A stretch of 33,574 bases of DNA, from the NCBI GenBank assembly GCA_044869795.1, contig JBIOXT010000191.1, positions 1 to 33,574 on the forward strand. Reading direction: 5' to 3'. This document shows positions 9,755-28,191 of the stretch, piece after piece. Each line of letters opens with the position of its first letter. The first letter of the stretch is position 1. The DNA is from a bacterium (GTDB lineage Bacteria > Sysuimicrobiota > Sysuimicrobiia > Sysuimicrobiales > Kaftiobacteriaceae). Position numbers and translations under genes: made by a program. Below the pieces are notes generated by a model, which was not told the origin of the DNA, did no database searches, and saw only the letters and a program-made list of their open reading frames with translations.

Positions 9755-9786
9755 TGGTCTAAACTCCCCCTAGTCCGCATTCTTGG

Positions 9787-9999
9787 TCAAGGTACCGGAT
9801 CGTAGCCGCCAGGATGAAATGGATGGCAGCGCAGCACCCGCCGTGTGGCCAGCATCGCCCCGCGCCACGGCCCGTGGCGCTGGATCGCCTCCACGGCGTA
9901 GGCGGAACACGTCGGGTAGAACCGGCAGGTCGGCGGCGTATACGGAGAGACAAAGCGCTGGTAGCCTCGGATCAGCAGCACCAACACGCGTTCCATCAT
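9787..9999 (-). CDS. yidD: Membrane protein insertion efficiency factor YidD
   Basis: Trimmed to [43 protein letters not shown]... (70 aa), which is the YidD signature. The ATG overlaps the rnpA stop (ATGA). Confidence 0.85.
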
Positions 10000-10334
10000 A
10001 CCGGCCGGCTCGAGATTCCTGCCTCTGTCAGCGCGCGCCGGAGCGACGCAATCAGTTCCAGAAAGGATGCGCCGGCCGCGTTCGCGCGAGGCGTACACAC
10101 GACATCGATACCCATCGGCAGCCCGCCCTCAAGGTCCCGCATCGCTTCCCGCAGCCGCCGGCGCAGGCGGTTGCGTCGCACGGCATTGCCAAACCGCCGT
10201 CCAACCGTCACCCCGATGCGCCGCATGCCCACTCCATTCGGCCGCACGTAGACGACGGCGAACTCGCCGATCCCGCGCGCCCCTTCCCGGAAGGTTGCCT
10301 TGAACTGCTCGCTGGTGAGGGACCGCGCGGTCAA
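9996..10334 (-). CDS. rnpA: Ribonuclease P protein component
   Basis: The basic RnpA-like sequence has the RNR-type motif ([17 protein letters not shown]). The proposed TTG start at 10334 overlaps the rpmH stop (TTGA). The longer 192-aa ORF would run through rpmH and is rejected. Confidence 0.75.
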
Positions 10335-10465
10335 ACGGTCAGGCGGTGCCGGCCCTTGGCCTTGCGCCTCTTCAGCACCGTCCGACCCCCCGGGCGGCGC
10401 ATGCGGCTGCGAAATCCGTGCGTTTTCTTCCGGCGATGTGCCTTCGGCTGGTACGTGCGCTTCAC
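10331..10465 (-). CDS. rpmH: 50S ribosomal protein L34
   Basis: The 44-aa product (V/M)[43 protein letters not shown] is the L34 signature. It has a GTG start at 10465, with GGGAGG 5 nt upstream. Confidence 0.9.
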
Positions 10466-10529
10466 AGATGCCTCCCGCGGAGAGTCGGCTTCCACTATAA
10501 CATATGAGAAATCGCCGCCGGGAGCCCAC

Positions 10530-10875
10530 AGCGGGAGTGGACAAACTGGGCACAACGGCCCGCGCTGTCCACATCTTTCACACCTCAGCCTGTCAGGCCG
10601 TGCCCGCCGGGCGGGGCACCGGCGGGTGAGGCGGTGGTGGATACGCCGCCATTATCCACAGGGTTCTGCACAGCTGTGGGTAAGTCGCCCGCCCCCGCGT
10701 CCAGCGAGGCGTTTGCGCACTGACGTTCGGCAGGACAGTCCGCCGATGCAATCGAACTTCCCTGCGCTTCCCCAGAACTGTTGTCCACAATTGTGGTCAT
10801 CACGCGGCCGTCCCTGGCCGGTCATGGAATTGGCGCCGCCGGGCGACCGGTCGTAGGAGTTGTGGAGATGGCGGA
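10530..10875. other. oriC part 1: DnaA-box cluster between rpmH and the GHKL-wHTH ORF
   Basis: Matches to TTATCCACA or its complement: 10652-10660 (9/9), 10675-10683 (TGTGGGTAA, 8/9), 10782-10790 (TTGTCCACA, 8/9), and 7/9 matches at 10536-10544, 10565-10573, 10636-10644 and 10861-10869. Confidence 0.7.
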
Positions 10876-10905: not shown

Positions 10906-11697
10906 ATGGCAGTGATCCCGGACTTTCCGCGGCCGGCGGGCCCGCAACAGGGCGCTGCATCCGGAAGCGCATCTGAGCCCGAGGTCCGCGTGGCCGTCTA
11001 CGACACCCCGCTCGCCAGCCCGCGCGTCGTTTCGATCCGGGCAACGGATTTCCATGAATTCGTCGGCGACCTGGCGGCACGCACGTACAACTATTCCCGT
11101 GAGCGCGGCGGGCGTATTCCGTTTGTCGTGATCCGTGAAATCGTCGAGAACCTCATCCATGCGACCTTCGCCGGAGCCGTGATCAGCATCCTCGACGGCG
11201 GGAACACCATCCGCATCTCCGACCAGGGTCCGGGGATCGCCGACAAACTCCACGCGCTCCTTCCGGGATTCACAACCGCCACGCCGGAGCTCCGGCGGTT
11301 CATCAAAGGCGTCGGATCCGGACTGCCCGTGGCGAGGGAAACGCTCGCCGTGATGGGCGGGGCCATGTCCATCGAGGACAACCTGGTGCGCGGTACCGTC
11401 GTCACCCTGCGCCTCGGACCGGAACCCGCCGCCCGCCCGGCCATTCCGGCGCGGGTCGAACCGTCACGTCCCCGCCACGAGTTGACCGCGCGGCAGAAAA
11501 AGGTCCTGCTGCTGATCGCGGAACTCGGTGCGGCCGGCCCCTCAGAGGTCGCCAAAGCCCTGGAGATGAGCCAGAGTACCGCCTACCGCGAACTGCAGCT
11601 GCTGACCAGCGCAGGGCTCATCGCCACCAAGCGGTACGGCAAGCGCACCCTTACCGAAGAAGGCATCGCTTCCCTCGACAGCGTGTTCTTGGACTAA
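10906..11697 (+). CDS. Uncharacterised GHKL (histidine-kinase-like) ATPase domain fused to a winged helix-turn-helix
   Basis: 263-aa ORF with high GC3. It has an N-box-like [10 protein letters not shown], a G1 box SDQGPGI, a G2 box [10 protein letters not shown] and a closing strand GTVVTLRL. There is no DHp/phospho-His region. The C-terminal MarR/ArsR-like wHTH reads [47 protein letters not shown]. It ends 32 nt before dnaA. The exact start is uncertain. Confidence 0.6.
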
Positions 11698-16667: not shown

Positions 16668-21071
<4,404 letters not shown>

Positions 21072-21737: not shown

Positions 21738-22634
21738 GTGAGCGTTACCGTCCGCGCGGCCAGGCCCTCAGACGAGCAACTCCCCCGAACCGTCAGCGGC
21801 CGCGATGCGGCGCCGCCGGAGTGGGACGCGTGGTCGGAGGAACCGGGCCATGCGCTCGTCGCCGAAGACGGCGGCCGGGTCGTCGGCGCGATTCACGTCT
21901 CGATGACCGGCCGGACCGAGGCGTGGATGGAAAACCTCCGTGTGCTGGCCGACGTTCAGGGGCGCGGGATTGCCGGCCGGTTGGTGCGCGAGGCGGAGCA
22001 TCTCGCGATCCGCTACGGCGCGGCAAAACTGCGCACCGCGATCCCTGCCCACGACTACGCGGCGCTGGCCGTCGCGCACCGCGGCGGATACTACCGTATG
22101 CTGCAGTCCGTTGTGCTGCAGACCCTGATCACGACCGATCCCCGCCACGTGCCGTACGACGCTCCCGTCGAAGCGCCGCACACGTCTTCCGCGTCGGAAC
22201 TGACCGCTTTTGTCTCCGCGACCCAGACCCTGCAGGGGTGGGACCACCTGCTTCCGCTGGGCTGGCGCTTTCGCCGGATCGTGCCGGAATTGGTCCGCGG
22301 GCTGATCAAGGACAAGCGGGCGTTCGTGGCGGTGCGCCCCGATGCGGTTCGGCCCGGCGCCCGGGGCCAATGGCGGGCCGATGACCTCCAGGGCGCCGTG
22401 CTGTTCGCGGAGCGCCCGCCCGCGCTGGTGATCTCCCTGCTCGACGGCAGCAGCCCCGCGATGCAGGCGCTGTACGGAACGGTCACGGAACGATCGAGCC
22501 GCCGTGGGATCTCGCAGGCCGTCATCTTCGCTCCCGCGGCCGCATCCGTGGCGCCGCTGGGCGGCGGGGAATGGACGCCGCACGCGTGGTGTCCGGACGG
22601 CGTCGTGGTGGTCGAAAAGAGCGTGGCCTCATGA
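21738..22634 (+). CDS. GNAT-family N-acetyltransferase with ~170-aa uncharacterised C-terminal extension
   Basis: 298-aa ORF. The acetyl-CoA binding motif A context is LRVLADVQGRGIAGRLVREAEHLA. I do not recognise the C-terminal half. Confidence 0.65.
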   Translation: MSVTVRAARPSDEQLPRTVSGRDAAPPEWDAWSEEPGHALVAEDGGRVVGAIHVSMTGRTEAWMENLRVLADVQGRGIAGRLVREAEHLAIRYGAAKLRTAIPAHDYAALAVAHRGGYYRMLQSVVLQTLITTDPRHVPYDAPVEAPHTSSASELTAFVSATQTLQGWDHLLPLGWRFRRIVPELVRGLIKDKRAFVAVRPDAVRPGARGQWRADDLQGAVLFAERPPALVISLLDGSSPAMQALYGTVTERSSRRGISQAVIFAPAAASVAPLGGGEWTPHAWCPDGVVVVEKSVAS

Positions 22635-23341
22635 CCCAGCTGCTCTACCTGCACGACAGTTACCTCCGGGAGTTCGACGCCGTGGCGAGTGCGGTCGAGG
22701 GCACGGCCGTGATCCTGGATCGCACGGCGTTCTACGCGGGCGGCGGCGGACAACCCGCCGATCGCGGGACCCTGTCCTGGACCGGATCGTCCGTCCGGGT
22801 CGGTGAGATGCAGCGTGCCGGATCCGATGTCGTGCACGTGGTCGACGGGACGCCCCCGCCGGTGGGAGCGCAGGTCCGGGGCGAACTGGACTGGGATCGC
22901 CGCTATGCCATCATGCGCCATCACTCGGCGCTGCACGTGCTGGTCGGCGTCATCTACAAAGTCTTCGGGGCAATGGTCACCGGCGGGGCGATCTATCCGG
23001 ACCGTGCCCGCATGGACTTCTCGCTGGAGGACCTCAACAAGGAGCGCGTGGCGACCATCGAGCAAGAGGCCAACCGCGTGATCGCGGAGTGCCATCGCAT
23101 CATGGTTCGGTACATCCCGCGCGAAGAATTCGAGCGGTCCGACCTCACCCGGCTGGCGAACGTGGCGCTGCCCTCCGACATCACCGAGGTCCGCGTCATC
23201 GATATCGAGGGATTCGATGCGCAGGCCGACGGCGGGACCCATGTGGCCAATACGCTCGAGATCGGAGGTCTCCGTGTCACCAAGACAGAGAACAAGGGGA
23301 AAACGAATCGCCGGCTCGAGATCGCACTGTCGGCAGGATAA
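22631..23341 (+). CDS. alaX: AlaX-type (alanyl-tRNA synthetase editing-domain-like) trans-editing protein
   Basis: Trimmed to MTQLLYLHDSYLREFDA... (236 aa), with the ATG overlapping the GNAT stop (ATGA). It has the HxxxH motif (RHHSALHVL) and the GGTHV motif (here ADGGTHV), characteristic of the tRNA_SAD/AlaX family. Confidence 0.75.
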   Translation: MTQLLYLHDSYLREFDAVASAVEGTAVILDRTAFYAGGGGQPADRGTLSWTGSSVRVGEMQRAGSDVVHVVDGTPPPVGAQVRGELDWDRRYAIMRHHSALHVLVGVIYKVFGAMVTGGAIYPDRARMDFSLEDLNKERVATIEQEANRVIAECHRIMVRYIPREEFERSDLTRLANVALPSDITEVRVIDIEGFDAQADGGTHVANTLEIGGLRVTKTENKGKTNRRLEIALSAG

Positions 23342-23418: not shown

Positions 23419-23832
23419 ATGCAGTGGCATCCCGCCGGTGATATCCAGGTTCGGCTGCGAGCGGTCATTCGAGCCCTTGGTCTTCAGCATGTCGACGCGC
23501 TGCGCGTGCACTGCGTACGGGTGTGCGGCTCCAGGGCCAACGCCCTTGCCCGGATCTGGGGACTGCCCCCCGTGTTCCAAGATGCGCTGAAGCTGAAGCC
23601 GCACTACGTCATCGAGTTCATGGTGCCGGCATTCGACCGGCTGCCGCGCGCGGAGCAGGATCGCGTGCTGATCCACGAACTCCTGCACATCCCCCGCACG
23701 TTCAGCGGCGGCATCCGGCCGGAACGGTCGCCGTCGCTGACCATCAACAACCGCACCGTCGAACGCTACTATCGCCAGTACCGCGCGGCGATGAAGCGGC
23801 GCAATACCGAGCCCCGATTCGCAGCGAAGTAA
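23419..23832 (+). CDS. Small predicted zinc metallopeptidase (HExxH)
   Basis: 137-aa ORF with LIHELLHIP (HExxH). The overall pattern resembles the small 'putative metallopeptidase' (SprT/COG4900-like) proteins. The family assignment is tentative. Confidence 0.5.
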   Translation: MQWHPAGDIQVRLRAVIRALGLQHVDALRVHCVRVCGSRANALARIWGLPPVFQDALKLKPHYVIEFMVPAFDRLPRAEQDRVLIHELLHIPRTFSGGIRPERSPSLTINNRTVERYYRQYRAAMKRRNTEPRFAAK

Positions 23833-23951: not shown

Positions 23952-24815
23952 ATGGATATCGACGGCCAGACGAGAGCCGTGGCAATCCTCGGCGATCCGG
24001 TGGCGCATTCGCTGTCGCCGCGGATGCACAACGCCGCGTTCGCGGCCGTCGGATTGAACTGGCGGTATCTTCCCTTCCGCGTCGGCCGTGGGGACCTCGC
24101 GACGGCGCTGCGCGGTCTTGCCGCGCTGGGGTTCGCCGGCTGCAACATCACCGTCCCGCACAAGCAGGCGGCCGCGGCGACGATGGACGCCGTTGATCGC
24201 GCGGCGCAGGTAATCGGTGCCGTGAACACCGTGCGCGTCGTGGACGGGCGATTGGAGGGTTTCAATACCGATGCCCCCGGCGTGGTCGATGCGCTTGCCG
24301 GCGGCACGGATGCGCATGGGCGGCAGTGCGTCGTGATCGGCGCCGGAGGAGGCGCGCGGGCGGCGGCATTTGCGCTCGCCGGCGGGGCGACCCGCCTGGT
24401 GATCCTGAACCGCACCGTCGCGCACGCCCGCGGTCTGGCCCAGGCTGTCGCGGCCGCGCATCCATCCTGCGCGGTCGATGCCGGCGATCTCTCCGCCGAC
24501 AGTATCGCCGCCGCGCTGGACGGCGCGGACGCGGTGATCCACGCGACCAGCGCGACGATGTCGGCAGCAATGGGCGGGGCAGGAGGGCGCGAGGAGTGGC
24601 TGGCGACGATTGCCGGACACCTCCGCCCCGGGATGGCGGTGCTCGACATGGTGTACACACCGGCGTGGACCGACCTGCTGACCGCGGCGCAGCGGGCCGG
24701 GGCGACCGCCATCAGCGGGCTGGCGCTGTTGGTCTATCAAGGGGCGCGCAGCTTTGAGGTGTGGACCGGCCGGCCGGCGCCGGTCGACGTGATGCGCAAG
24801 GCGGTTGGGCTGTGA
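23952..24815 (+). CDS. aroE: Shikimate dehydrogenase
   Basis: 287-aa ORF with ILGDPVAHSLSPRMHNAAF, GCNITVPHK, NTDAPG and a Rossmann motif (VIGAGGGARAAAFAL). Confidence 0.9.
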   Translation: MDIDGQTRAVAILGDPVAHSLSPRMHNAAFAAVGLNWRYLPFRVGRGDLATALRGLAALGFAGCNITVPHKQAAAATMDAVDRAAQVIGAVNTVRVVDGRLEGFNTDAPGVVDALAGGTDAHGRQCVVIGAGGGARAAAFALAGGATRLVILNRTVAHARGLAQAVAAAHPSCAVDAGDLSADSIAAALDGADAVIHATSATMSAAMGGAGGREEWLATIAGHLRPGMAVLDMVYTPAWTDLLTAAQRAGATAISGLALLVYQGARSFEVWTGRPAPVDVMRKAVGL

Positions 24816-25315
24816 GGCGCCTGCCGCGGCTGACGGACTTCTCGATCCCCCTGGGCCTGGCGGGGATCATGCTCATCGCGTGGTTTTGGGGCTGGCGCCT
24901 CGCCCTCATCGTGGTGCTGGTGATCGTCGGGATCGGTGTGGCCGGCATCCTCCTGCCGCTGCCGTGGCAGGAACGGCTGCGCGGCACGACGATGGACGTC
25001 GGCGACCGGCCGATGCTCATCTACCTCTACTCGCCGTACTGAGCGGGCTGCGCAGCGGCGAAACCTATCGTGGATAGGCTGATCAACATGGAGCATGACC
25101 GGGTCGACGTGAAACGCGTCAACGTGCTCAGCGCCGCGGGGGAAGATCTGGCCTGGCGGCTGCAGGTGGACATCGTGCCGCTGGTTCTCCTCTACGATCT
25201 CGACGGCGCCGAGCGCTACCGCGTGTCGGGCATCTGGGTGCGTCCCGGCACGGTGGCGCGGAAGGTGGACGACATCCTCCGCGGCGCGGGGAGCAACCCG
25301 GGAAGCCGATGCTGA
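24812..25315 (+). CDS. Membrane-anchored thioredoxin-fold protein with in-frame TGA at the first CxxC position (candidate selenoprotein, or a pseudogene)
   Basis: Two same-frame ORFs (24812-25042 and 25070-25315) are separated only by the TGA at 25040-25042. The joined translation is ...DRPMLIYLYSPY[TGA]AGCAAAKPIVDRLINMEHDRVDVKRVNVLSAAGEDLAWRLQVDIVPLVLLYDLDG.... This gives a beta1-[U/C]xxC-alpha1 ... cis-Pro (VP) thioredoxin layout after two hydrophobic helices. GC3 is high on both sides of the TGA. Confidence 0.5.
25064..25078 (+). promoter_or_regulatory. Candidate bacterial SECIS-like hairpin downstream of the in-frame TGA
   Basis: CCTATC-GTG-GATAGG is a perfect 6-bp stem with a GUG loop. 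The stem starts 21 nt after the UGA, inside the distance window expected for bacterial SECIS apical loops, and the loop begins with GU. Confidence 0.3.
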
Positions 25316-26430
25316 GATTTCTGACGGCGGGCGAGTCGCACGGACGGGCGCTGCTGGCAATCCTCGAAGGCGTCCCGGCGGGTCTCGCGCTGTCGGAAGA
25401 TGACATCGCCGAGCAGCTGCGCCGCCGGCAGCTGGGATACGGCCGCAGCGTCCGCATGAAGCTGGAAACCGACAGGGCGGAGCTGGTCTCCGGCGTGATC
25501 CGCGGCCAGACCATCGGCGGACCGGTCGGGGTGCGCATCGAGAATCGAGATGTCCGTCTCGACGAACCAGAACTCACACGGCCGCGCCCAGGACACGCCG
25601 ATCTCGTCGGCGCAATGAAGTTTGGCTTCACCGACGTGCGGCTGGCGCTGGAGCGCGCCAGCGCCAGGGAAACGGCCGCGCGGGTTGCGGTGGGTGCCGT
25701 CTGCCGCCGGCTCCTCGCAGAGTTCGGCATCCGCATCTTCAGTCACGTCACCGACATCGGCAACGTGGCCGTCGTGAGCCGCCCGCCCAACTGGGAAGAC
25801 ATTCCGGAGATCGCCGAGCGGTCCGAGCTGCGCTGCGTGGACCCCGACGCCGACGCCGCGATGCGCCGCGCGATCGAGGAGGCGAAGAAGCGCGGTGACA
25901 CGCTGGGCGGGGTGTTCGAGGTCGTCGCCCTCGGTGTGCCGGCGGGTTTAGGCAGCTACGTGCATTGGGACCGCAAGCTGGACGGCCGCCTGGCCCAGGC
26001 GGTGATGTCGATCCATGCCGTCAAGGGCGTCGAGGTCGGCCCCGGATTCAGTATCGCGCGGACGAGCGGATCAGAGGCGCACGATGAGATCTTCTGGTCG
26101 GCCGGCCGGGGATTCTACCGTGAAACGAACCGTGCCGGGGGCACCGAGGGCGGGGTGACGACGGGCGGGCCTGTCGTCGTGCGCGGCGGCATGAAGCCGC
26201 TGTCCACGCTGATGTCGCCCTTGCATTCCGTGGACATCAAAAGCAAAGAACCGGCCGCCGGCGCCGTGGTCCGCAGCGACGTCAGCGCCGTGCCGGCCGC
26301 CGGGGTCGTCGGCGAGGCGATGGTGGCCTTCGTCCTGGCCGACGCCTTTCTGGAGAAATTCGGCGGCGATTCAATTTCAGACATTCGAGTTTCATACGAG
26401 GCCTATATGCGACGTATCAAGGAAATGTAG
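25309..26430 (+). CDS. aroC: Chorismate synthase
   Basis: 373-aa ORF with MLRFLTAGESHG, RRQLGYGRS, RPGHADL and SARETAARVA signatures. The start overlaps the preceding ORF by 7 nt. Confidence 0.95.
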   Translation: MLRFLTAGESHGRALLAILEGVPAGLALSEDDIAEQLRRRQLGYGRSVRMKLETDRAELVSGVIRGQTIGGPVGVRIENRDVRLDEPELTRPRPGHADLVGAMKFGFTDVRLALERASARETAARVAVGAVCRRLLAEFGIRIFSHVTDIGNVAVVSRPPNWEDIPEIAERSELRCVDPDADAAMRRAIEEAKKRGDTLGGVFEVVALGVPAGLGSYVHWDRKLDGRLAQAVMSIHAVKGVEVGPGFSIARTSGSEAHDEIFWSAGRGFYRETNRAGGTEGGVTTGGPVVVRGGMKPLSTLMSPLHSVDIKSKEPAAGAVVRSDVSAVPAAGVVGEAMVAFVLADAFLEKFGGDSISDIRVSYEAYMRRIKEM

Positions 26431-26562: not shown

Positions 26563-28191
26563 GTGAGGAACATTGTCCTGATAGGGTTCATGGGGACCGG
26601 GAAGAGCGAGGTGGGCCGGCTGCTGGCGCGCCGGCTGGGCTGGAAGTTCGTCGACACGGACCGGCGCGTCGAGGCGCGCGAGGGCGCCTCGGTCGCGCAG
26701 ATCTTTGCCCGTCGCGGCGAGTCCTACTTTCGTGAGGCGGAAGCCAGGGTCGTAGCCAAGGTCGTGATGGAGCGGGACACGGTCATCGCGAGCGGCGGCG
26801 GAGTCGTGCTGCGCCCCGACAATATGCTCCGCCTGCGGCGTCACGGCTGGATCGTCTCCCTGACCGCTCCGGTGGAAGTCATCCTCTCGCGTTTGGGCGA
26901 AGGCGAAGGGCGGCCGCTGCTGAAGGCCGCATCCGGGACCGCGCGGCGCGTCGATCTGCGCCAGACGGTGACGCGGCTGCTGTCCGAGCGGCGGCCGCTG
27001 TACCGGGATGCCGATCTGATCCTCGACATCTCCGCCACGACGCCTGCCCGCGCGGTGGAAGCGATCGTCGCGTTCTTGGGCCGTCGTGAGCGGCAGGTCA
27101 TTCCGGTGCGCATCGACGACCGCGCGTACTCCATCTACGTCGGGGATGGCATCCTTCCGCTGCTGCCGGCCGATCTGGGAACGCTCGAGGCCGGCACGCA
27201 CACGGCGATCTTGTCGCACCGGCCGCTGCTGCGGGTGACGGGTCGGAAACTCGCCAAGACACTGGCGGCCTGGGGGTTCGACCCGCTGGTCCTCGAGGTG
27301 CCGGCCGGGGAGCGCGCCAAGAGCCTGGCCGTGGCGGCGCAGCTGTTCGCGCGCCTTGCCCGTGCACGGTTCGATCGCAACTGCACGGTCGTGGCGCTGG
27401 GCGGCGGCGTCGTCGGCGACGTGGGAGGATTTGTTGCCGCGTCGTACATGCGCGGCGTCCGCCTGGTCCAGATCCCCACGACCCTGCTGGCGATGGTGGA
27501 CAGCAGCATCGGCGGGAAGACCGGCGTCAATCATGCCGGGGTGAAGAACCTGGTCGGCGCCTTTCATCAGCCCGCCGAAGTGCTGGCCGACGTGCGGCTG
27601 CTGTCGACGCTGCCCGCGCGCGAACTGCGCAGCGGCATGGCCGAAGTCATCAAGACCGCCGTCATCGGCGACCCCAGCCTGTTCGAGTATCTGGAACGAG
27701 AACTCGAGTCGGTGCTGGGCCGCGAGCCGCGCGCGCTGGTCGAGGTGATCACGCACTGCGCCGCCTACAAGGCGCGGATCGTAGAGCTGGATGAGCGCGA
27801 GCGACGCCAGCGGATGGTGCTCAACTACGGCCACACGATCGGTCACGCCGTCGAGGCCGCGGCCGGGCTCAGCCGCGTGACCCACGGCGAAGCGGTCGCC
27901 ATCGGGATGGCACTGGAAGCGCGGATCGCGCAGCAGCTGGGCCTCGCGGCGGCGGACATCGTGCGGCGCCAGAACGAATTGCTGCGCCGGACCGGGTTGC
28001 CGGTCGGTCTTCCGCGCATCAACACGCACACGCTGTGGCGGGCGATGGCCTTGGACAAGAAAGTGCGCAACGGGAAGGTCCGCTTCCCGCTGCTCAAAGG
28101 CATCGGTGAAGTGATGCTCGAACAGGAAGTGCCTGAGACGCTGCTGCGGGAGGTGCTGGCCGGTGCGCGTGCTGGTCGTGTACGGTCCTAA
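26563..28191 (+). CDS. aroK-aroB: Bifunctional shikimate kinase / 3-dehydroquinate synthase
   Basis: 542-aa ORF. The N-terminal ~175 aa are shikimate kinase (VLIGFMGTGKSEVGRLLA, FVDTD, ASGGG). The remainder is DHQ synthase (LGGGVVGDVGGFVAASYMRG, VDSSIGGKTGVN, LNYGHTIGHA, HGEAVAIGM). Confidence 0.9.
   Translation: MRNIVLIGFMGTGKSEVGRLLARRLGWKFVDTDRRVEAREGASVAQIFARRGESYFREAEARVVAKVVMERDTVIASGGGVVLRPDNMLRLRRHGWIVSLTAPVEVILSRLGEGEGRPLLKAASGTARRVDLRQTVTRLLSERRPLYRDADLILDISATTPARAVEAIVAFLGRRERQVIPVRIDDRAYSIYVGDGILPLLPADLGTLEAGTHTAILSHRPLLRVTGRKLAKTLAAWGFDPLVLEVPAGERAKSLAVAAQLFARLARARFDRNCTVVALGGGVVGDVGGFVAASYMRGVRLVQIPTTLLAMVDSSIGGKTGVNHAGVKNLVGAFHQPAEVLADVRLLSTLPARELRSGMAEVIKTAVIGDPSLFEYLERELESVLGREPRALVEVITHCAAYKARIVELDERERRQRMVLNYGHTIGHAVEAAAGLSRVTHGEAVAIGMALEARIAQQLGLAAADIVRRQNELLRRTGLPVGLPRINTHTLWRAMALDKKVRNGKVRFPLLKGIGEVMLEQEVPETLLREVLAGARAGRVRS

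What the first reader, a model, noticed from the sequence alone, without database searches (positions are those of the whole stretch)
24812..25315. Thioredoxin-fold membrane protein with TGA in place of the first CxxC cysteine: candidate UxxC selenoprotein inside the aro operon
The ORFs 24812-25042 and 25070-25315 share one frame and are separated by a single TGA (25040-25042). Reading through gives MLIYLYSPY-[TGA]-AGC-AAAKPIVDRL..., so the TGA sits exactly where a thioredoxin-fold protein has the N-terminal Cys of CxxC. The beta1 strand precedes it, and alpha1 and the cis-Pro strand (DIVPLVLLYD) follow it. Neither half is a plausible protein alone: the downstream half lacks a Shine-Dalgarno and half the active site. 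A perfect hairpin (CCTATC GTG GATAGG, 25064-25078) starts 21 nt after the UGA, which is compatible with a bacterial SECIS. Sec/Cys pairs in the redox motifs of thioredoxin-like proteins are a known theme, but this one is embedded between aroE and aroC with overlapping start and stop codons, which is unusual. TGA is a genuine stop elsewhere in the window (rpmH, aroE, moxR), so wholesale recoding is unlikely.
Basis: partly seen in the sequence, partly recalled or inferred. Interest (0 to 1): 0.7.

Follow-up and report, generated by a model that had tools for sequence, protein, structure and literature searches.

The report
Membrane-anchored thioredoxin-like selenoprotein gene
What gene callers split into two small ORFs between aroE and aroC is almost certainly one gene for a membrane-anchored thioredoxin whose first active-site cysteine is selenocysteine, encoded by TGA; this is a genuine but familiar kind of selenoprotein that databases split in two in every member I checked.

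Summary
Window 24812-25315 is a single reading frame with one TGA (25040-25042), giving ...LYSPY-U-AGC-AAAKPIVDRL....

The selenocysteine reading is strongly supported:
- The same in-frame TGA sits at the same column in all 11 loci examined (22-97% protein identity).
- Cys-containing homologues align Cys exactly there (YSPYCAGC). One of them occupies the same aroE-x-aroC slot.
- Both halves evolve as coding sequence.
- A hairpin with a G-first triloop lies 27 nt after the UGA. It is perfect in 8 of 11 Sec forms and 0 of 5 Cys forms, and it shows a compensatory U-A to C-G switch.
- A relative's contig carries selA 2.4 kb away.

The domain is a TrxA-type thioredoxin fold behind an N-terminal hydrophobic anchor.

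Weak points: the window is the whole contig and holds no sel genes or tRNA-Sec, so the organism's own Sec machinery is untested. The window's hairpin is also energetically weak (-4.8 to -5.9 kcal/mol).

UxxC thioredoxin-fold selenoproteins are a long-known kind, so this is a new member rather than a new mechanism. The family appears mostly Sec-containing and has no dedicated NCBIfam model. All eight short database entries I traced to DNA follow a TGA split, and most of the others look the same.

The parts
24812..25315 (+). Complete selenoprotein gene (167 codons including Sec77): N-terminal hydrophobic anchor plus a thioredoxin-fold domain
   Evidence: One frame with a single TGA. Pfam Thioredoxin is above its cutoff with U read as C. 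Orthologues have the same architecture.
24812..24815 (+). GTGA overlap: the GTG start of this gene overlaps the TGA stop of aroE (translational coupling)
   Evidence: The same junction is ATGA in L004 and L005 and GTGA in L001.
24839..24967 (+). Hydrophobic anchor, residues ~10-52 (two predicted helices)
   Evidence: Kyte-Doolittle segments 10-26 and 24-52. The AF2 model of Cys orthologue P0005 has helices 11-24 and 29-48.
25040..25042 (+). UGA read as selenocysteine (U77), the first residue of the U-A-G-C redox motif
   Evidence: TGA at the same column in 11 of 11 loci. Cys at that column in homologues.
25049..25051 (+). TGC, resolving cysteine C80 of UxxC
   Evidence: Invariant column C80 in alignment A4.
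25062..25080 (+). SECIS-like hairpin. Core is CCUAUC-GUG-GAUAGG (25064-25078) with an outer A-U pair. It overlaps codons K-P-I-V-D-R-L.
   Evidence: In register, 87.5% of cells pair against 44% or less when partners are slid. Pair 27-37 is UA in 6, CG in 3 and GC in 1. The stem is perfect in 8/11 Sec forms and 0/5 Cys forms. The codons used, CCT and AGG, make up 3.8% and 4.5% of their families in the window.
25178..25180 (+). CCG, conserved cis-proline (P123) of the thioredoxin fold
   Evidence: Invariant column P123. It precedes strand 123-127 in the AF2 model of the orthologue.
25309..25315 (+). ATGCTGA: the aroC start codon overlaps this gene's TGA stop
   Evidence: aroC is identified by Pfam Chorismate_synt, E 1e-115.
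23952..24815 (+). aroE (shikimate dehydrogenase), the upstream operon neighbour
25309..26430 (+). aroC (chorismate synthase), the downstream operon neighbour. It is followed by aroK-aroB, aroQ, aroH and aroA up to 30281.

Best explanation
Window 24812-25315 is one gene for a ~167-residue membrane-anchored thioredoxin-fold oxidoreductase with the active site Y-U-A-G-C.

Proposed mechanism:
- During translation, the UGA at 25040 is decoded as selenocysteine (inferred).
- SelB carrying Sec-tRNA(Sec) is recruited by the small hairpin 27 nt downstream (25064-25078, G-first triloop) and outcompetes RF2 (inferred).
- The product has a hydrophobic N-terminal anchor of two predicted helices. This is followed by a minimal TrxA-type fold (beta-alpha-beta-alpha-beta-beta-alpha). 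Sec77 sits at the N-terminus of helix alpha1, Cys80 is the resolving residue, and Pro123 is the cis-proline.
- Sec77 would be the attacking nucleophile on substrate disulfides or oxidised thiols. It would form a selenenylsulfide with Cys80 that an upstream reductase recycles (inferred).

Shown here: the frame, the recurrent TGA, the Sec/Cys pairing, coding constraint on both halves, the fold (on the Cys orthologue), conservation and covariation of the hairpin, and operon coupling.

Inferred: actual Sec insertion, the SelB-hairpin interaction, the redox chemistry, the partner and substrate, and which side of the membrane the domain faces.
For: 1. Recurrent TGA. Every one of 11 loci read at the DNA level has TGA, never TAA or TAG, at the first-Cys column, although TGA is only 13 of 30 stops in the window. 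Protein identity to the window ranges from 22% to 65%.

2. Sec/Cys pairs. L002 and L003 have YSPYCAGC. There are nine full-length CxxC forms of about 160 aa.
- Cys orthologue P0005 (CTGC) sits in the same aroE-x-aroC slot.
- Cys form P0038 shares the TPMT-methyltransferase context of Sec form L007.

3. Both halves are under coding constraint. Downstream-half differences by codon position are 12/11/33 for window vs L001. For L004 vs L005 there are 18 synonymous and 5 non-synonymous changes.

4. Thioredoxin identity.
- Pfam PF00085 is above its cutoff.
- The family profile matches classical thioredoxins in the PDB at E 1e-17, with U/CxxC aligned on CGPC.
- The AF2 model of P0005 has pLDDT about 90 in the domain. 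It matches spinach Trx-m with TM 0.78 and rmsd 1.8 A.
- Invariant columns are U/C77, C80, P85, R102 and P123.

5. SECIS-like hairpin.
- It has a 3-nt loop GUG, a 6-8 bp stem and 27 nt spacing. This meets criteria i-iii of the published bSECIS model (PMC13188914).
- In register, 87.5% of cells are paired against 44% or less when slid, and the covariation score is 0.253 against 0.135 for shuffles (0 of 500 reach it).
- Pair 27-37 switches CCU/AGG to CCC/GGG, linking a synonymous Pro site to an Arg/Gly change.
- L014 and L007 have different hairpins in the allowed range.
- The stem is perfect in 8/11 Sec forms and 0/5 Cys forms.
- The stem is built from the rarest Pro and Arg codons of the window.

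6. Sec machinery in a family member's organism. L017 carries selA (TIGR00474, 505.8 bits against a cutoff of 267.9) 2.4 kb from its Sec-form gene.

7. No restart signal. In the window, L004, L005 and L017, no ATG/GTG/TTG start codon follows the TGA, and no SD precedes the next GTG.
Against: - No selA, selB, selD or tRNA-Sec is present in the 33.6-kb window, which is the whole contig. The organism's own Sec trait is therefore unverified.
- The window's hairpin is weak. It scores -4.8 kcal/mol for the perfect stem and -5.9 for the local fold, above the -7.5 threshold.
- The 61-nt region does not fold better than shuffles (z = 0.24).
- 12-13% of all window positions pass the bSECIS rule set.
- The peptide motif P-I-V-D-R by itself encodes much of the stem: the five Cys forms still keep 21 of 30 core pairs.
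- The loci are not phylogenetically independent. There are about 7 lineages, so the covariation rests on few events.
- 7 of 11 Sec forms have ATG or GTG directly after the TGA. This could allow reinitiation, though it is probably ascertainment through gene callers.
Confidence: 0.85

Rival explanations
1. The TGA is a true stop and the locus makes two polypeptides: a 76-residue membrane peptide ending in ...LYSPY, and a soluble ~80-90-residue fragment made by termination-reinitiation or an internal start. The two might reassemble into a split thioredoxin.
For: Seven of 11 loci have ATG or GTG immediately after the TGA. Gene callers everywhere predict two genes. The downstream half is under purifying selection either way.
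Against: - The window, L004, L005 and L017 have GCG, GCA or CTG after the TGA, and no Shine-Dalgarno precedes the next GTG at 25070.
- The split would fall exactly on the catalytic Cys column, between beta1 and alpha1 of one fold.
- The stop is always TGA, never TAA or TAG.
- Syntenic orthologues are unsplit and carry Cys there.
- The excess of start codons is expected from ascertainment, because the downstream halves were found through gene calls.
Confidence: 0.05
2. The UGA is read through without selenocysteine. This could be near-cognate decoding (Trp or Cys) or a lineage-specific reassignment of UGA, giving a WxxC or CxxC protein.
For: The Sec machinery of the window's own organism was not seen. 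The window's hairpin is energetically weak.
Against: - UGA terminates 13 of 30 well-supported genes in the window at their expected ends, so there is no reassignment.
- Leaky read-through would give little product for a conserved enzyme.
- A conserved, covarying hairpin at SECIS distance is specific to the Sec forms.
- A family member's contig encodes SelA.
- Sec at the first position of UxxC in thioredoxin folds is the commonest selenoprotein pattern (PMC13188914).
Confidence: 0.06
3. The gene is a pseudogene, or the TGA is an assembly or sequencing error of TGC/TGT.
For: A single nucleotide separates TGA from TGC or TGT. The window comes from a metagenome-type contig.
Against: - The same TGA occurs in 10 other independent assemblies from different projects and lineages.
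- The reading frame is intact on both sides, with third-position-biased substitutions and more synonymous than non-synonymous changes downstream.
- No other stops or frameshifts are present.
Confidence: 0.02

Closest known systems
Sec-containing thioredoxin (Trx, PF00085, UxxC; experimentally verified in Treponema denticola, listed in Table 1 of PMC13188914)
   Same: TrxA-type thioredoxin fold. Sec replaces the first, attacking Cys of CxxC. Cys homologues are widespread. A SECIS hairpin lies just downstream inside the coding region.
   Different: - This protein has an N-terminal hydrophobic anchor of about 55-65 residues.
- The motif is SPY-U-x-G-C rather than W-U-G-P-C.
- It scores far below the NCBIfam thioredoxin equivalog cutoff (28.6 vs 96.8 bits).
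- It is only 20-36% identical to solved thioredoxins.
- No direct sequence comparison with the T. denticola protein was possible here.
'Trx-like 1/2/3' and 'thiol:disulfide interchange' UxxC selenoprotein subfamilies from the Sargasso Sea and GOS metagenomes (PMC1088965, PMC2398784)
   Same: Thioredoxin-fold proteins with a UxxC motif, found as Sec/Cys pairs in environmental sequence. In 'Trx-like 3', Sec forms are as numerous as Cys forms (212 vs 183). In the family here, short halves outnumber Cys or Ser forms by about 24 to 12 among 50%-identity clusters.
   Different: - Those subfamilies are defined from marine reads by COG/CDD labels.
- No membrane anchor or aro-operon context is mentioned in those papers.
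Membrane-anchored thioredoxin-like proteins such as TlpA/ResA/CcmG (cd02966) and cyanobacterial TxlA/HCF164 (recalled from memory, not tested)
   Same: An N-terminal membrane anchor followed by a thioredoxin-fold CxxC domain. Some distant subfamily members here look C-terminus-out by charge distribution.
   Different: - The domain here matches classical TrxA/Trx-m/Trx2 best, not the Redoxin or AhpC-TSA type.
- There is no extra TlpA-type insertion; the fold is minimal (4 strands, 3 helices).
- Most members have two hydrophobic helices rather than one.
- The active site uses Sec.
E. coli fdhF-type bacterial SECIS / consensus bSECIS model (Zhang and Gladyshev, as summarised in PMC13188914 Fig. 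2)
   Same: A stem-loop inside the ORF just 3' of the UGA. It has a small apical loop starting with G followed by U, and 27 nt spacing (allowed range 16-37).
   Different: - The stem is very short: 6 bp with a triloop in the window, and no obvious conserved lower stem.
- The energy is above the model threshold in the window.
- The stem is interlocked with a conserved peptide motif (K-P-I-V-D-R/G), so protein and RNA constraints are confounded.

Membership tests
Bacterial selenoprotein gene | In-frame UGA aligned with a conserved (catalytic) Cys in homologues (Sec/Cys pair) | tested here: met
   YSPY-TGA-AGC in the window against YSPYCAGC in L002 and L003. CxxC is present in 9 full-length homologues. 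Syntenic Cys orthologues are L015/L016 and L018.
Bacterial selenoprotein gene | TGA-containing homologues in other organisms, with conserved sequence on both sides of the TGA | tested here: met
   11 of 11 loci carry TGA. Third-position-biased substitutions occur on both sides.
Bacterial selenoprotein gene | bSECIS criteria i-iii: 3-9 nt apical loop and 4-16 bp upper stem; G in the first two loop positions; 16-37 nt between UGA and loop (PMC13188914, Fig. 2) | tested here: met
   Loop GUG, stem of 6 bp (8 bp in L001, L004 and L010), spacing 27 nt. The hairpin is conserved with covariation.
Bacterial selenoprotein gene | bSECIS criterion iv: MFE of -7.5 kcal/mol or lower | tested here: inconclusive
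   Window -4.8 (perfect stem) and -5.9 (local fold). L001, L004 and L010 give -8.5, L006 and L017 -8.1, L011 -10.7, L014 -9.2 to -12.2. The rule set has a 12-13% background pass rate in this window.
Bacterial selenoprotein gene | selA, selB, selC (tRNA-Sec) and selD present in the same genome | not testable with these tools
   None is present in the window, which is the whole 33,574-bp contig. The window's aroC is not on record elsewhere. Indirect support: selA lies on the contig of family member L017.
Bacterial selenoprotein gene | Selenium actually incorporated at the UGA position | not testable with these tools
   This needs 75Se labelling or mass spectrometry.
Thioredoxin family (Pfam PF00085, thioredoxin fold) | Profile match above the curated threshold | tested here: met
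   26.7 bits against a gathering score of 23.5, with U read as C. The family profile matches PDB thioredoxins at E 1.2e-17.
Thioredoxin family (Pfam PF00085, thioredoxin fold) | CxxC at the N-terminus of alpha1, a cis-Pro before beta3, and beta-alpha-beta-alpha-beta-beta-alpha topology | tested here: met
   Invariant U/C77, C80 and P123. The AF2 model of Cys orthologue P0005 shows E67-72, H77-92, E97-103, H107-116, E123-127, E132-138 and H144-159. Foldseek gives TM 0.78 to 1fb0. The window protein itself could not be submitted for modelling.
Canonical thioredoxin TrxA (NCBIfam TIGR01068 equivalog) | Score above the equivalog cutoff; WCGPC motif; soluble protein of about 105 aa | tested here: not met
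   28.6 bits against a cutoff of 96.8. The motif is Y-U-A-G-C. There is an extra hydrophobic N-terminal region of about 60 residues.
TlpA/DsbE/ResA-type membrane thiol:disulfide oxidoreductases | Redoxin or AhpC-TSA type domain (PF08534, PF00578, cd02966) | tested here: not met
   No Pfam hit to these models at E of 1 or lower. DsbE models give only E of about 1e-3 to 7e-3, far below cutoff, for relatives.
Named NCBIfam selenoprotein 'exception' families (e.g. SaoT, TsoB, HUIPC, VPGUxxT) | Match to a dedicated selenoprotein model | tested here: not met
   No such model is hit by the joined window protein. Relatives hit seleno_TsoB only at 15-21 bits against a cutoff of 805.

The most novel reading that the evidence does not exclude
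This may be an undescribed, predominantly Sec-containing family of membrane-anchored thioredoxins that is split into two 'hypothetical proteins' across public databases. Its SECIS stem is built from, and co-evolves with, the codons of the conserved K-P-I-V-D-R/G motif at the start of helix alpha1.

In the window's clade the gene is translationally coupled into the shikimate/chorismate operon between aroE and aroC. That position is kept even in the Cys orthologue, which hints at a redox role tied to aromatic or quinone biosynthesis at the membrane.
Probability: 0.3. Interest if true: 0.55.

Novelty: new member of a known kind. Interest (0 to 1): 0.42.

Why it matters
- **Annotation:** one real gene is currently called as two hypothetical ORFs. 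All eight short database entries I traced back to DNA follow a TGA split, and most other short hits (68-100 aa) have the same appearance. No NCBIfam selenoprotein model rescues the family.
- **Selenium use in soil lineages:** the gene implies that the GC-rich soil lineage carrying this contig uses selenocysteine. That adds to recent indications that some soil and groundwater lineages have large selenoproteomes (PMC13188914).
- **Study material:** the family offers two clean syntenic Sec/Cys orthologue pairs (the aro-operon context and the TPMT-methyltransferase context). It also has a minimal 6-bp triloop SECIS candidate interlocked with a peptide motif. Both are convenient for studying Sec-to-Cys exchange and minimal SelB recognition.
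- **Limits:** it does not change what is known about how selenoproteins work.

Tried and rejected
- **Joined protein not accepted.** The joined protein (TGA read as C) could not be submitted to the search of protein representatives or structure prediction. I used the exact downstream half plus P0001 for the exhaustive search, and Cys orthologue P0005 for modelling.
- **First genome scan.** The search for related loci on genome contigs found nothing because one of its two patterns required a Cys codon. The second scan used a DNA pattern that demands the TGA and found L004 and L005.
- **Fold energy as SECIS evidence: rejected.** z-scores were 0.24 and -0.67, and 12-13% of window positions pass the bSECIS rules.
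- **Synonymous-site conservation just after the TGA.** Window vs L001 gave 11 of 13 identical codons against a 60% background. This is suggestive only.
- **Walking to the rest of the genome.** The window's aroC is not on record. P0063 shows the longest contig is 33,574 bp, which is the window itself.
- **Missing RNA evidence.** No tRNA-Sec was found in the window or in 14 loci. There were no Rfam hits in the window.
- **Taxonomy.** The organism could not be identified. The related MAG records are titled only 'bacterium'. Methylomirabilota was considered only as a guess from GC content and the review's remark, and it was not tested.
- **Topology.** The positive-inside rule gave conflicting answers between the window clade and distant subfamilies, so no side of the membrane is claimed.
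- **Identity with published 'Trx-like 3'.** This could not be tested because no sequences are given in the paper text.
Full report
**1. The observation**

- Window 24812-25315 (+) is one reading frame interrupted by a single TGA at 25040-25042. Read-through gives VRRLPRLTDFSIPLGLAGIMLIAWFWGWRLALIVVLVIVGIGVAGILLPLPWQERLRGTTMDVGDRPMLIYLYSPY-[TGA]-AGCAAAKPIVDRL...GSRC.
- The GTG start overlaps the aroE stop (GTGA, 24812-24815). The TGA stop overlaps the aroC start (ATGCTGA, 25309-25315).
- The hairpin CCTATC-GTG-GATAGG is at 25064-25078.
- The neighbourhood is a full shikimate/chorismate operon: aroE, this gene, aroC, an aroK-aroB fusion, aroQ, aroH-type chorismate mutase and aroA.
- TGA is a normal stop in this contig. 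It ends 13 of 30 Pfam-supported genes; TAG ends 9 and TAA 8.
- A control scan for same-frame ORF pairs split by one TGA, with coding-like composition on both sides, found only three cases in the window. The other two are trivially explained: yidC followed by jag, and an antisense frame.

**2. What the protein is**

- With the TGA read as Cys, the protein passes the Pfam Thioredoxin gathering threshold (26.7 vs 23.5 bits).
- A 19-sequence family alignment has these invariant columns: U/C77, C80, P85, R102 and the cis-proline P123.
- The family profile matches classical thioredoxins in the PDB at E of about 1e-17, with U/CxxC aligned on CGPC.
- An AlphaFold2 model of the closest Cys orthologue (P0005) has pLDDT of about 90 over the domain. 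It shows two N-terminal helices followed by beta-alpha-beta-alpha-beta-beta-alpha, with CxxC at the N-terminus of alpha1.
- Foldseek places that model on spinach thioredoxin m (TM 0.78, rmsd 1.8 A).
- It is not a canonical TrxA: TIGR01068 gives 28.6 bits against a cutoff of 96.8. It does not match TlpA/DsbE-type models or any dedicated NCBIfam selenoprotein model.
- The first ~55 residues are hydrophobic, with two predicted helices.

**3. Is the TGA selenocysteine?**

*Close relatives.* The word-indexed protein search found a single close relative, P0001. Its called gene starts at M-G-C-A-A-A-K-P directly after the end of another 94-aa gene. The DNA (L001) reads ...LYSPY-TGA-MGCAAAKPIVDRL, downstream of an aroE 3' end. 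A genome scan with a DNA pattern demanding the TGA inside Y-x-P-Y-TGA-x-G-C-x3-K-P-x-V-D found two soil MAG contigs, L004 and L005. Both have the same aroE-gene-aroC arrangement and the same TGA.

*Exhaustive search.* An HMM search of 1.84 billion representative proteins with the downstream half returned 37 hits. About a dozen are longer Cys or Ser forms, nine of them full-length CxxC proteins of about 160 aa. About 24 are proteins of roughly 61-100 aa (most 67-88) beginning MGC/MAC/MPC/VAC...KP or slightly later. Including P0001 and P0044, which came from the two word-indexed searches, every one of the eight short proteins I traced to DNA is preceded, base-adjacent and in frame, by an upstream ORF that ends in TGA at the first-Cys column:

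| Locus | Junction |
|---|---|
| L001 | LYSPY-TGA-MGC |
| L006 | FFTNT-TGA-VGC |
| L007 | FQSAY-TGA-MGC |
| L010 | VYSNW-TGA-VVC |
| L011 | FYSNF-TGA-VGC |
| L012 | FFSNG-TGA-MPC |
| L014 | YQSEY-TGA-MAC |
| L017 | FFGNT-TGA-LGC |

A second profile search returned 29 hits. About 25 of them are again 68-100-aa halves, including the window's own upstream half (P0063) and a 97%-identical strain (P0058).

*Cys forms.* Cys-containing relatives align Cys exactly at the TGA column:
- L002 and L003 read YSPYCAGC.
- P0005 reads SSPLCTGC and lies between aroE and aroC, exactly like the window gene.
- P0038 shares the downstream TPMT-like methyltransferase and metalloenzyme genes of Sec form L007.

This gives two syntenic Sec/Cys orthologue pairs.

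*Coding constraint.* Both halves of the window gene evolve as coding sequence. Downstream-half differences between the window and L001 fall 12/11/33 on codon positions 1/2/3. L004 vs L005 show 18 synonymous and 5 non-synonymous codon changes.

*Sec machinery in a relative.* The 41-kb contig of family member L017 encodes SelA 2.4 kb upstream of its Sec-form gene (TIGR00474, 505.8 bits against a cutoff of 267.9).

**4. The hairpin**

The published bacterial SECIS model has four requirements (PMC13188914, Fig. 2):

| Requirement | Window hairpin |
|---|---|
| 3-9 nt apical loop on a 4-16 bp stem | GUG triloop on a 6-bp stem (8 bp in L001, L004, L010) |
| G in the first two loop positions | met |
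| 16-37 nt from the UGA to the loop | 27 nt |
| MFE of -7.5 kcal/mol or lower | -4.8 (perfect stem) or -5.9 (local fold) |

Relatives reach -8.1 to -12.2 kcal/mol.

Energy is not informative here. The 61 nt after the UGA fold no better than shuffles, and 12-13% of all window positions pass the whole rule set.

The comparative evidence is better:
- On a 10-sequence ungapped alignment, the helix (columns 23-30 with 34-41) has 87.5% of cells paired, against 44% or less when partners are slid by 1-3 columns.
- Three pairs have changes on both sides, and the covariation score of 0.253 exceeds all 500 shuffles.
- The clearest case is pair 27-37. CCU...AGG (Pro...Arg) occurs in six sequences and CCC...GGG (Pro...Gly) in three, so a synonymous Pro site tracks an Arg/Gly replacement.
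- In the window, CCT and AGG are the rarest codons of their families (3.8% and 4.5%). This is what one expects if single steps toward the preferred CCG or CGG are blocked by the pairing.
- In the aro-operon Cys orthologue, Pro has drifted to CCC while Arg remains AGG, which breaks the pair.
- L014 and L007 have different hairpins at 23-24 nt spacing.
- The in-register 6-bp stem is perfect in 8 of 11 Sec forms and 0 of 5 Cys forms.

Caveats:
- The peptide P-I-V-D-R intrinsically encodes a near-palindrome (CCN AUC GUN GAU NGG). The five Cys forms still keep 21 of 30 core pairs, against 61 of 66 in the Sec forms.
- The 11 loci represent about seven lineages, so the number of independent events is small.

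**5. Rival explanations**

- **True split gene with reinitiation.** This is suggested by ATG or GTG directly after the TGA in 7 of 11 loci. That excess is expected from ascertainment through gene calls. The window, L004, L005 and L017 have GCG, GCA or CTG there, and no Shine-Dalgarno precedes the next GTG. The split would also fall exactly on the catalytic residue inside one fold, always with TGA.
- **Code reassignment.** Excluded by normal TGA stops.
- **Pseudogene or read error.** Excluded by recurrence in independent assemblies with intact, constrained frames.
- **Non-Sec read-through.** Cannot be formally excluded for the window's own organism, because its Sec machinery could not be examined. 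The window is the whole contig and carries only an origin-region gene set plus the aro operon. Those genes are gcvT, parB, parA, rsmG, jag, yidC, yidD, rnpA, rpmH, dnaA, dnaN, recF, dciA, gyrBA, an M50 protease, a GNAT, AlaX, moxR and DUF58. It has no tRNA and no Rfam hit.

**6. Mechanism proposed**

- *Shown:* one ORF with Sec-UGA at the attacking position of a TrxA-type UxxC motif; a conserved downstream hairpin; translational coupling to aroE and aroC.
- *Inferred:* SelB carrying Sec-tRNA(Sec) binds the hairpin when the ribosome reaches the UGA and inserts Sec77. The mature protein is tethered to the membrane. Sec77 attacks substrate disulfides and forms a selenenylsulfide with Cys80, which is recycled by a reductase.
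- *Unresolved:* which side of the membrane the domain faces. In the window clade, the N-tail (+3 to +4) and the segment after the second helix (+3 to +4) are both positively charged. That suggests a cytoplasmic-face domain. Single-anchor or loop-positive distant subfamilies look C-terminus-out.
- *Unknown:* any functional tie to the shikimate pathway. The position is conserved in the window clade and its Cys orthologue, but other subfamilies sit next to unrelated genes.

**7. Comparison with what is known**

- Thioredoxin-fold UxxC selenoproteins are the archetypal bacterial selenoproteins. Sec-thioredoxin (PF00085) is experimentally verified. Several 'Trx-like', 'thiol:disulfide interchange' and 'thiol-disulfide isomerase-like' UxxC subfamilies have been catalogued from metagenomes since 2004-2008.
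- The kind is therefore known.
- I could not find a description of this subfamily: an N-terminal double-helix anchor, an SPY-U-x-G-C motif, a KPIVD[R/G]-embedded hairpin, mostly Sec forms, and soil or groundwater origin.
- No NCBIfam model names it, and source annotations say at most 'thioredoxin-related protein'.
- It may be the same as one of the published 'Trx-like' groups; that cannot be tested with the text available.

**8. Verdict**

- My confidence that this is a genuine selenoprotein gene is about 0.85.
- Novelty: a new member of a known kind.
- Interest is moderate (0.42). It is a solid annotation correction and a tidy Sec/Cys family with a minimal SECIS candidate, but a selenoprotein specialist would not be surprised by it.

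Noticed in passing
window 16680-21071 (+): A single 1463-aa ORF carries all GyrB domains (HATPase_c, DNA_gyraseB, Toprim, GyrB_C; residues ~37-625). These are followed by all GyrA domains (DNA_topoisoIV 681-1108, six GyrA_C blades). This is an apparent natural GyrB-GyrA fusion downstream of dnaA-dnaN-recF-dciA.
   Followed up: partly
window 26563-28191 (+): Shikimate kinase (SKI, residues 10-171) is fused to 3-dehydroquinate synthase (244-501) in one 542-aa ORF, an aroK-aroB fusion.
   Followed up: no
window 23419-23832 (+): A 137-aa ORF matches Pfam 'Putative phage metallopeptidase' (PF18894, E 1.8e-17). It sits between an AlaX-like editing-domain protein (22571-23341) and aroE.
   Followed up: no
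L007 2033-4297, L008, L009 (Sec forms) and L018 291-2285 (Cys form): In this subfamily the thioredoxin-like gene is followed, with overlapping stop and start, by a TPMT-family methyltransferase and then a 'Metalloenzyme' superfamily protein. In L007-L009 a flavin reductase comes next. From memory, bacterial TPMT enzymes methylate selenium and tellurium species, so the link to a selenoprotein is curious.
   Followed up: no
L017 6107-10222: selA (TIGR00474) is followed by ychF, tRNA-Pro(TGG) and a HigB-like toxin/HTH antitoxin pair, immediately upstream of the Sec-form thioredoxin-like gene.
   Followed up: partly
P0011 and P0031 (family members): P0011 has Ser at the Sec/Cys column (YSNY-S-VAC), an SxxC variant. 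P0031 (278 aa) carries two tandem thioredoxin-like domains of this family (FFSPFCQTC and EGPDCEDC).
   Followed up: no
11 Sec-form loci, the codon after the TGA (window 25043-25045): 7 of 11 Sec forms have ATG or GTG as the codon immediately after the Sec-UGA (x1 = M or V). Cys forms mostly have L, A, I or T there. This is probably ascertainment through gene callers, but a real context preference cannot be excluded.
   Followed up: partly
window 10906-11697 (+): A 263-aa ORF just upstream of dnaA combines a histidine-kinase-type ATPase domain (HATPase_c) with a TrmB-like HTH, an unusual pairing at an origin region.
   Followed up: no
window 9783-10856 (+) versus the minus strand 9787-10574: The long 357-aa + strand ORF has no Pfam match and is probably spurious. 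The minus strand holds the expected rpmH (…MKRTYQPK…), rnpA and a yidD-like gene next to yidC.
   Followed up: partly
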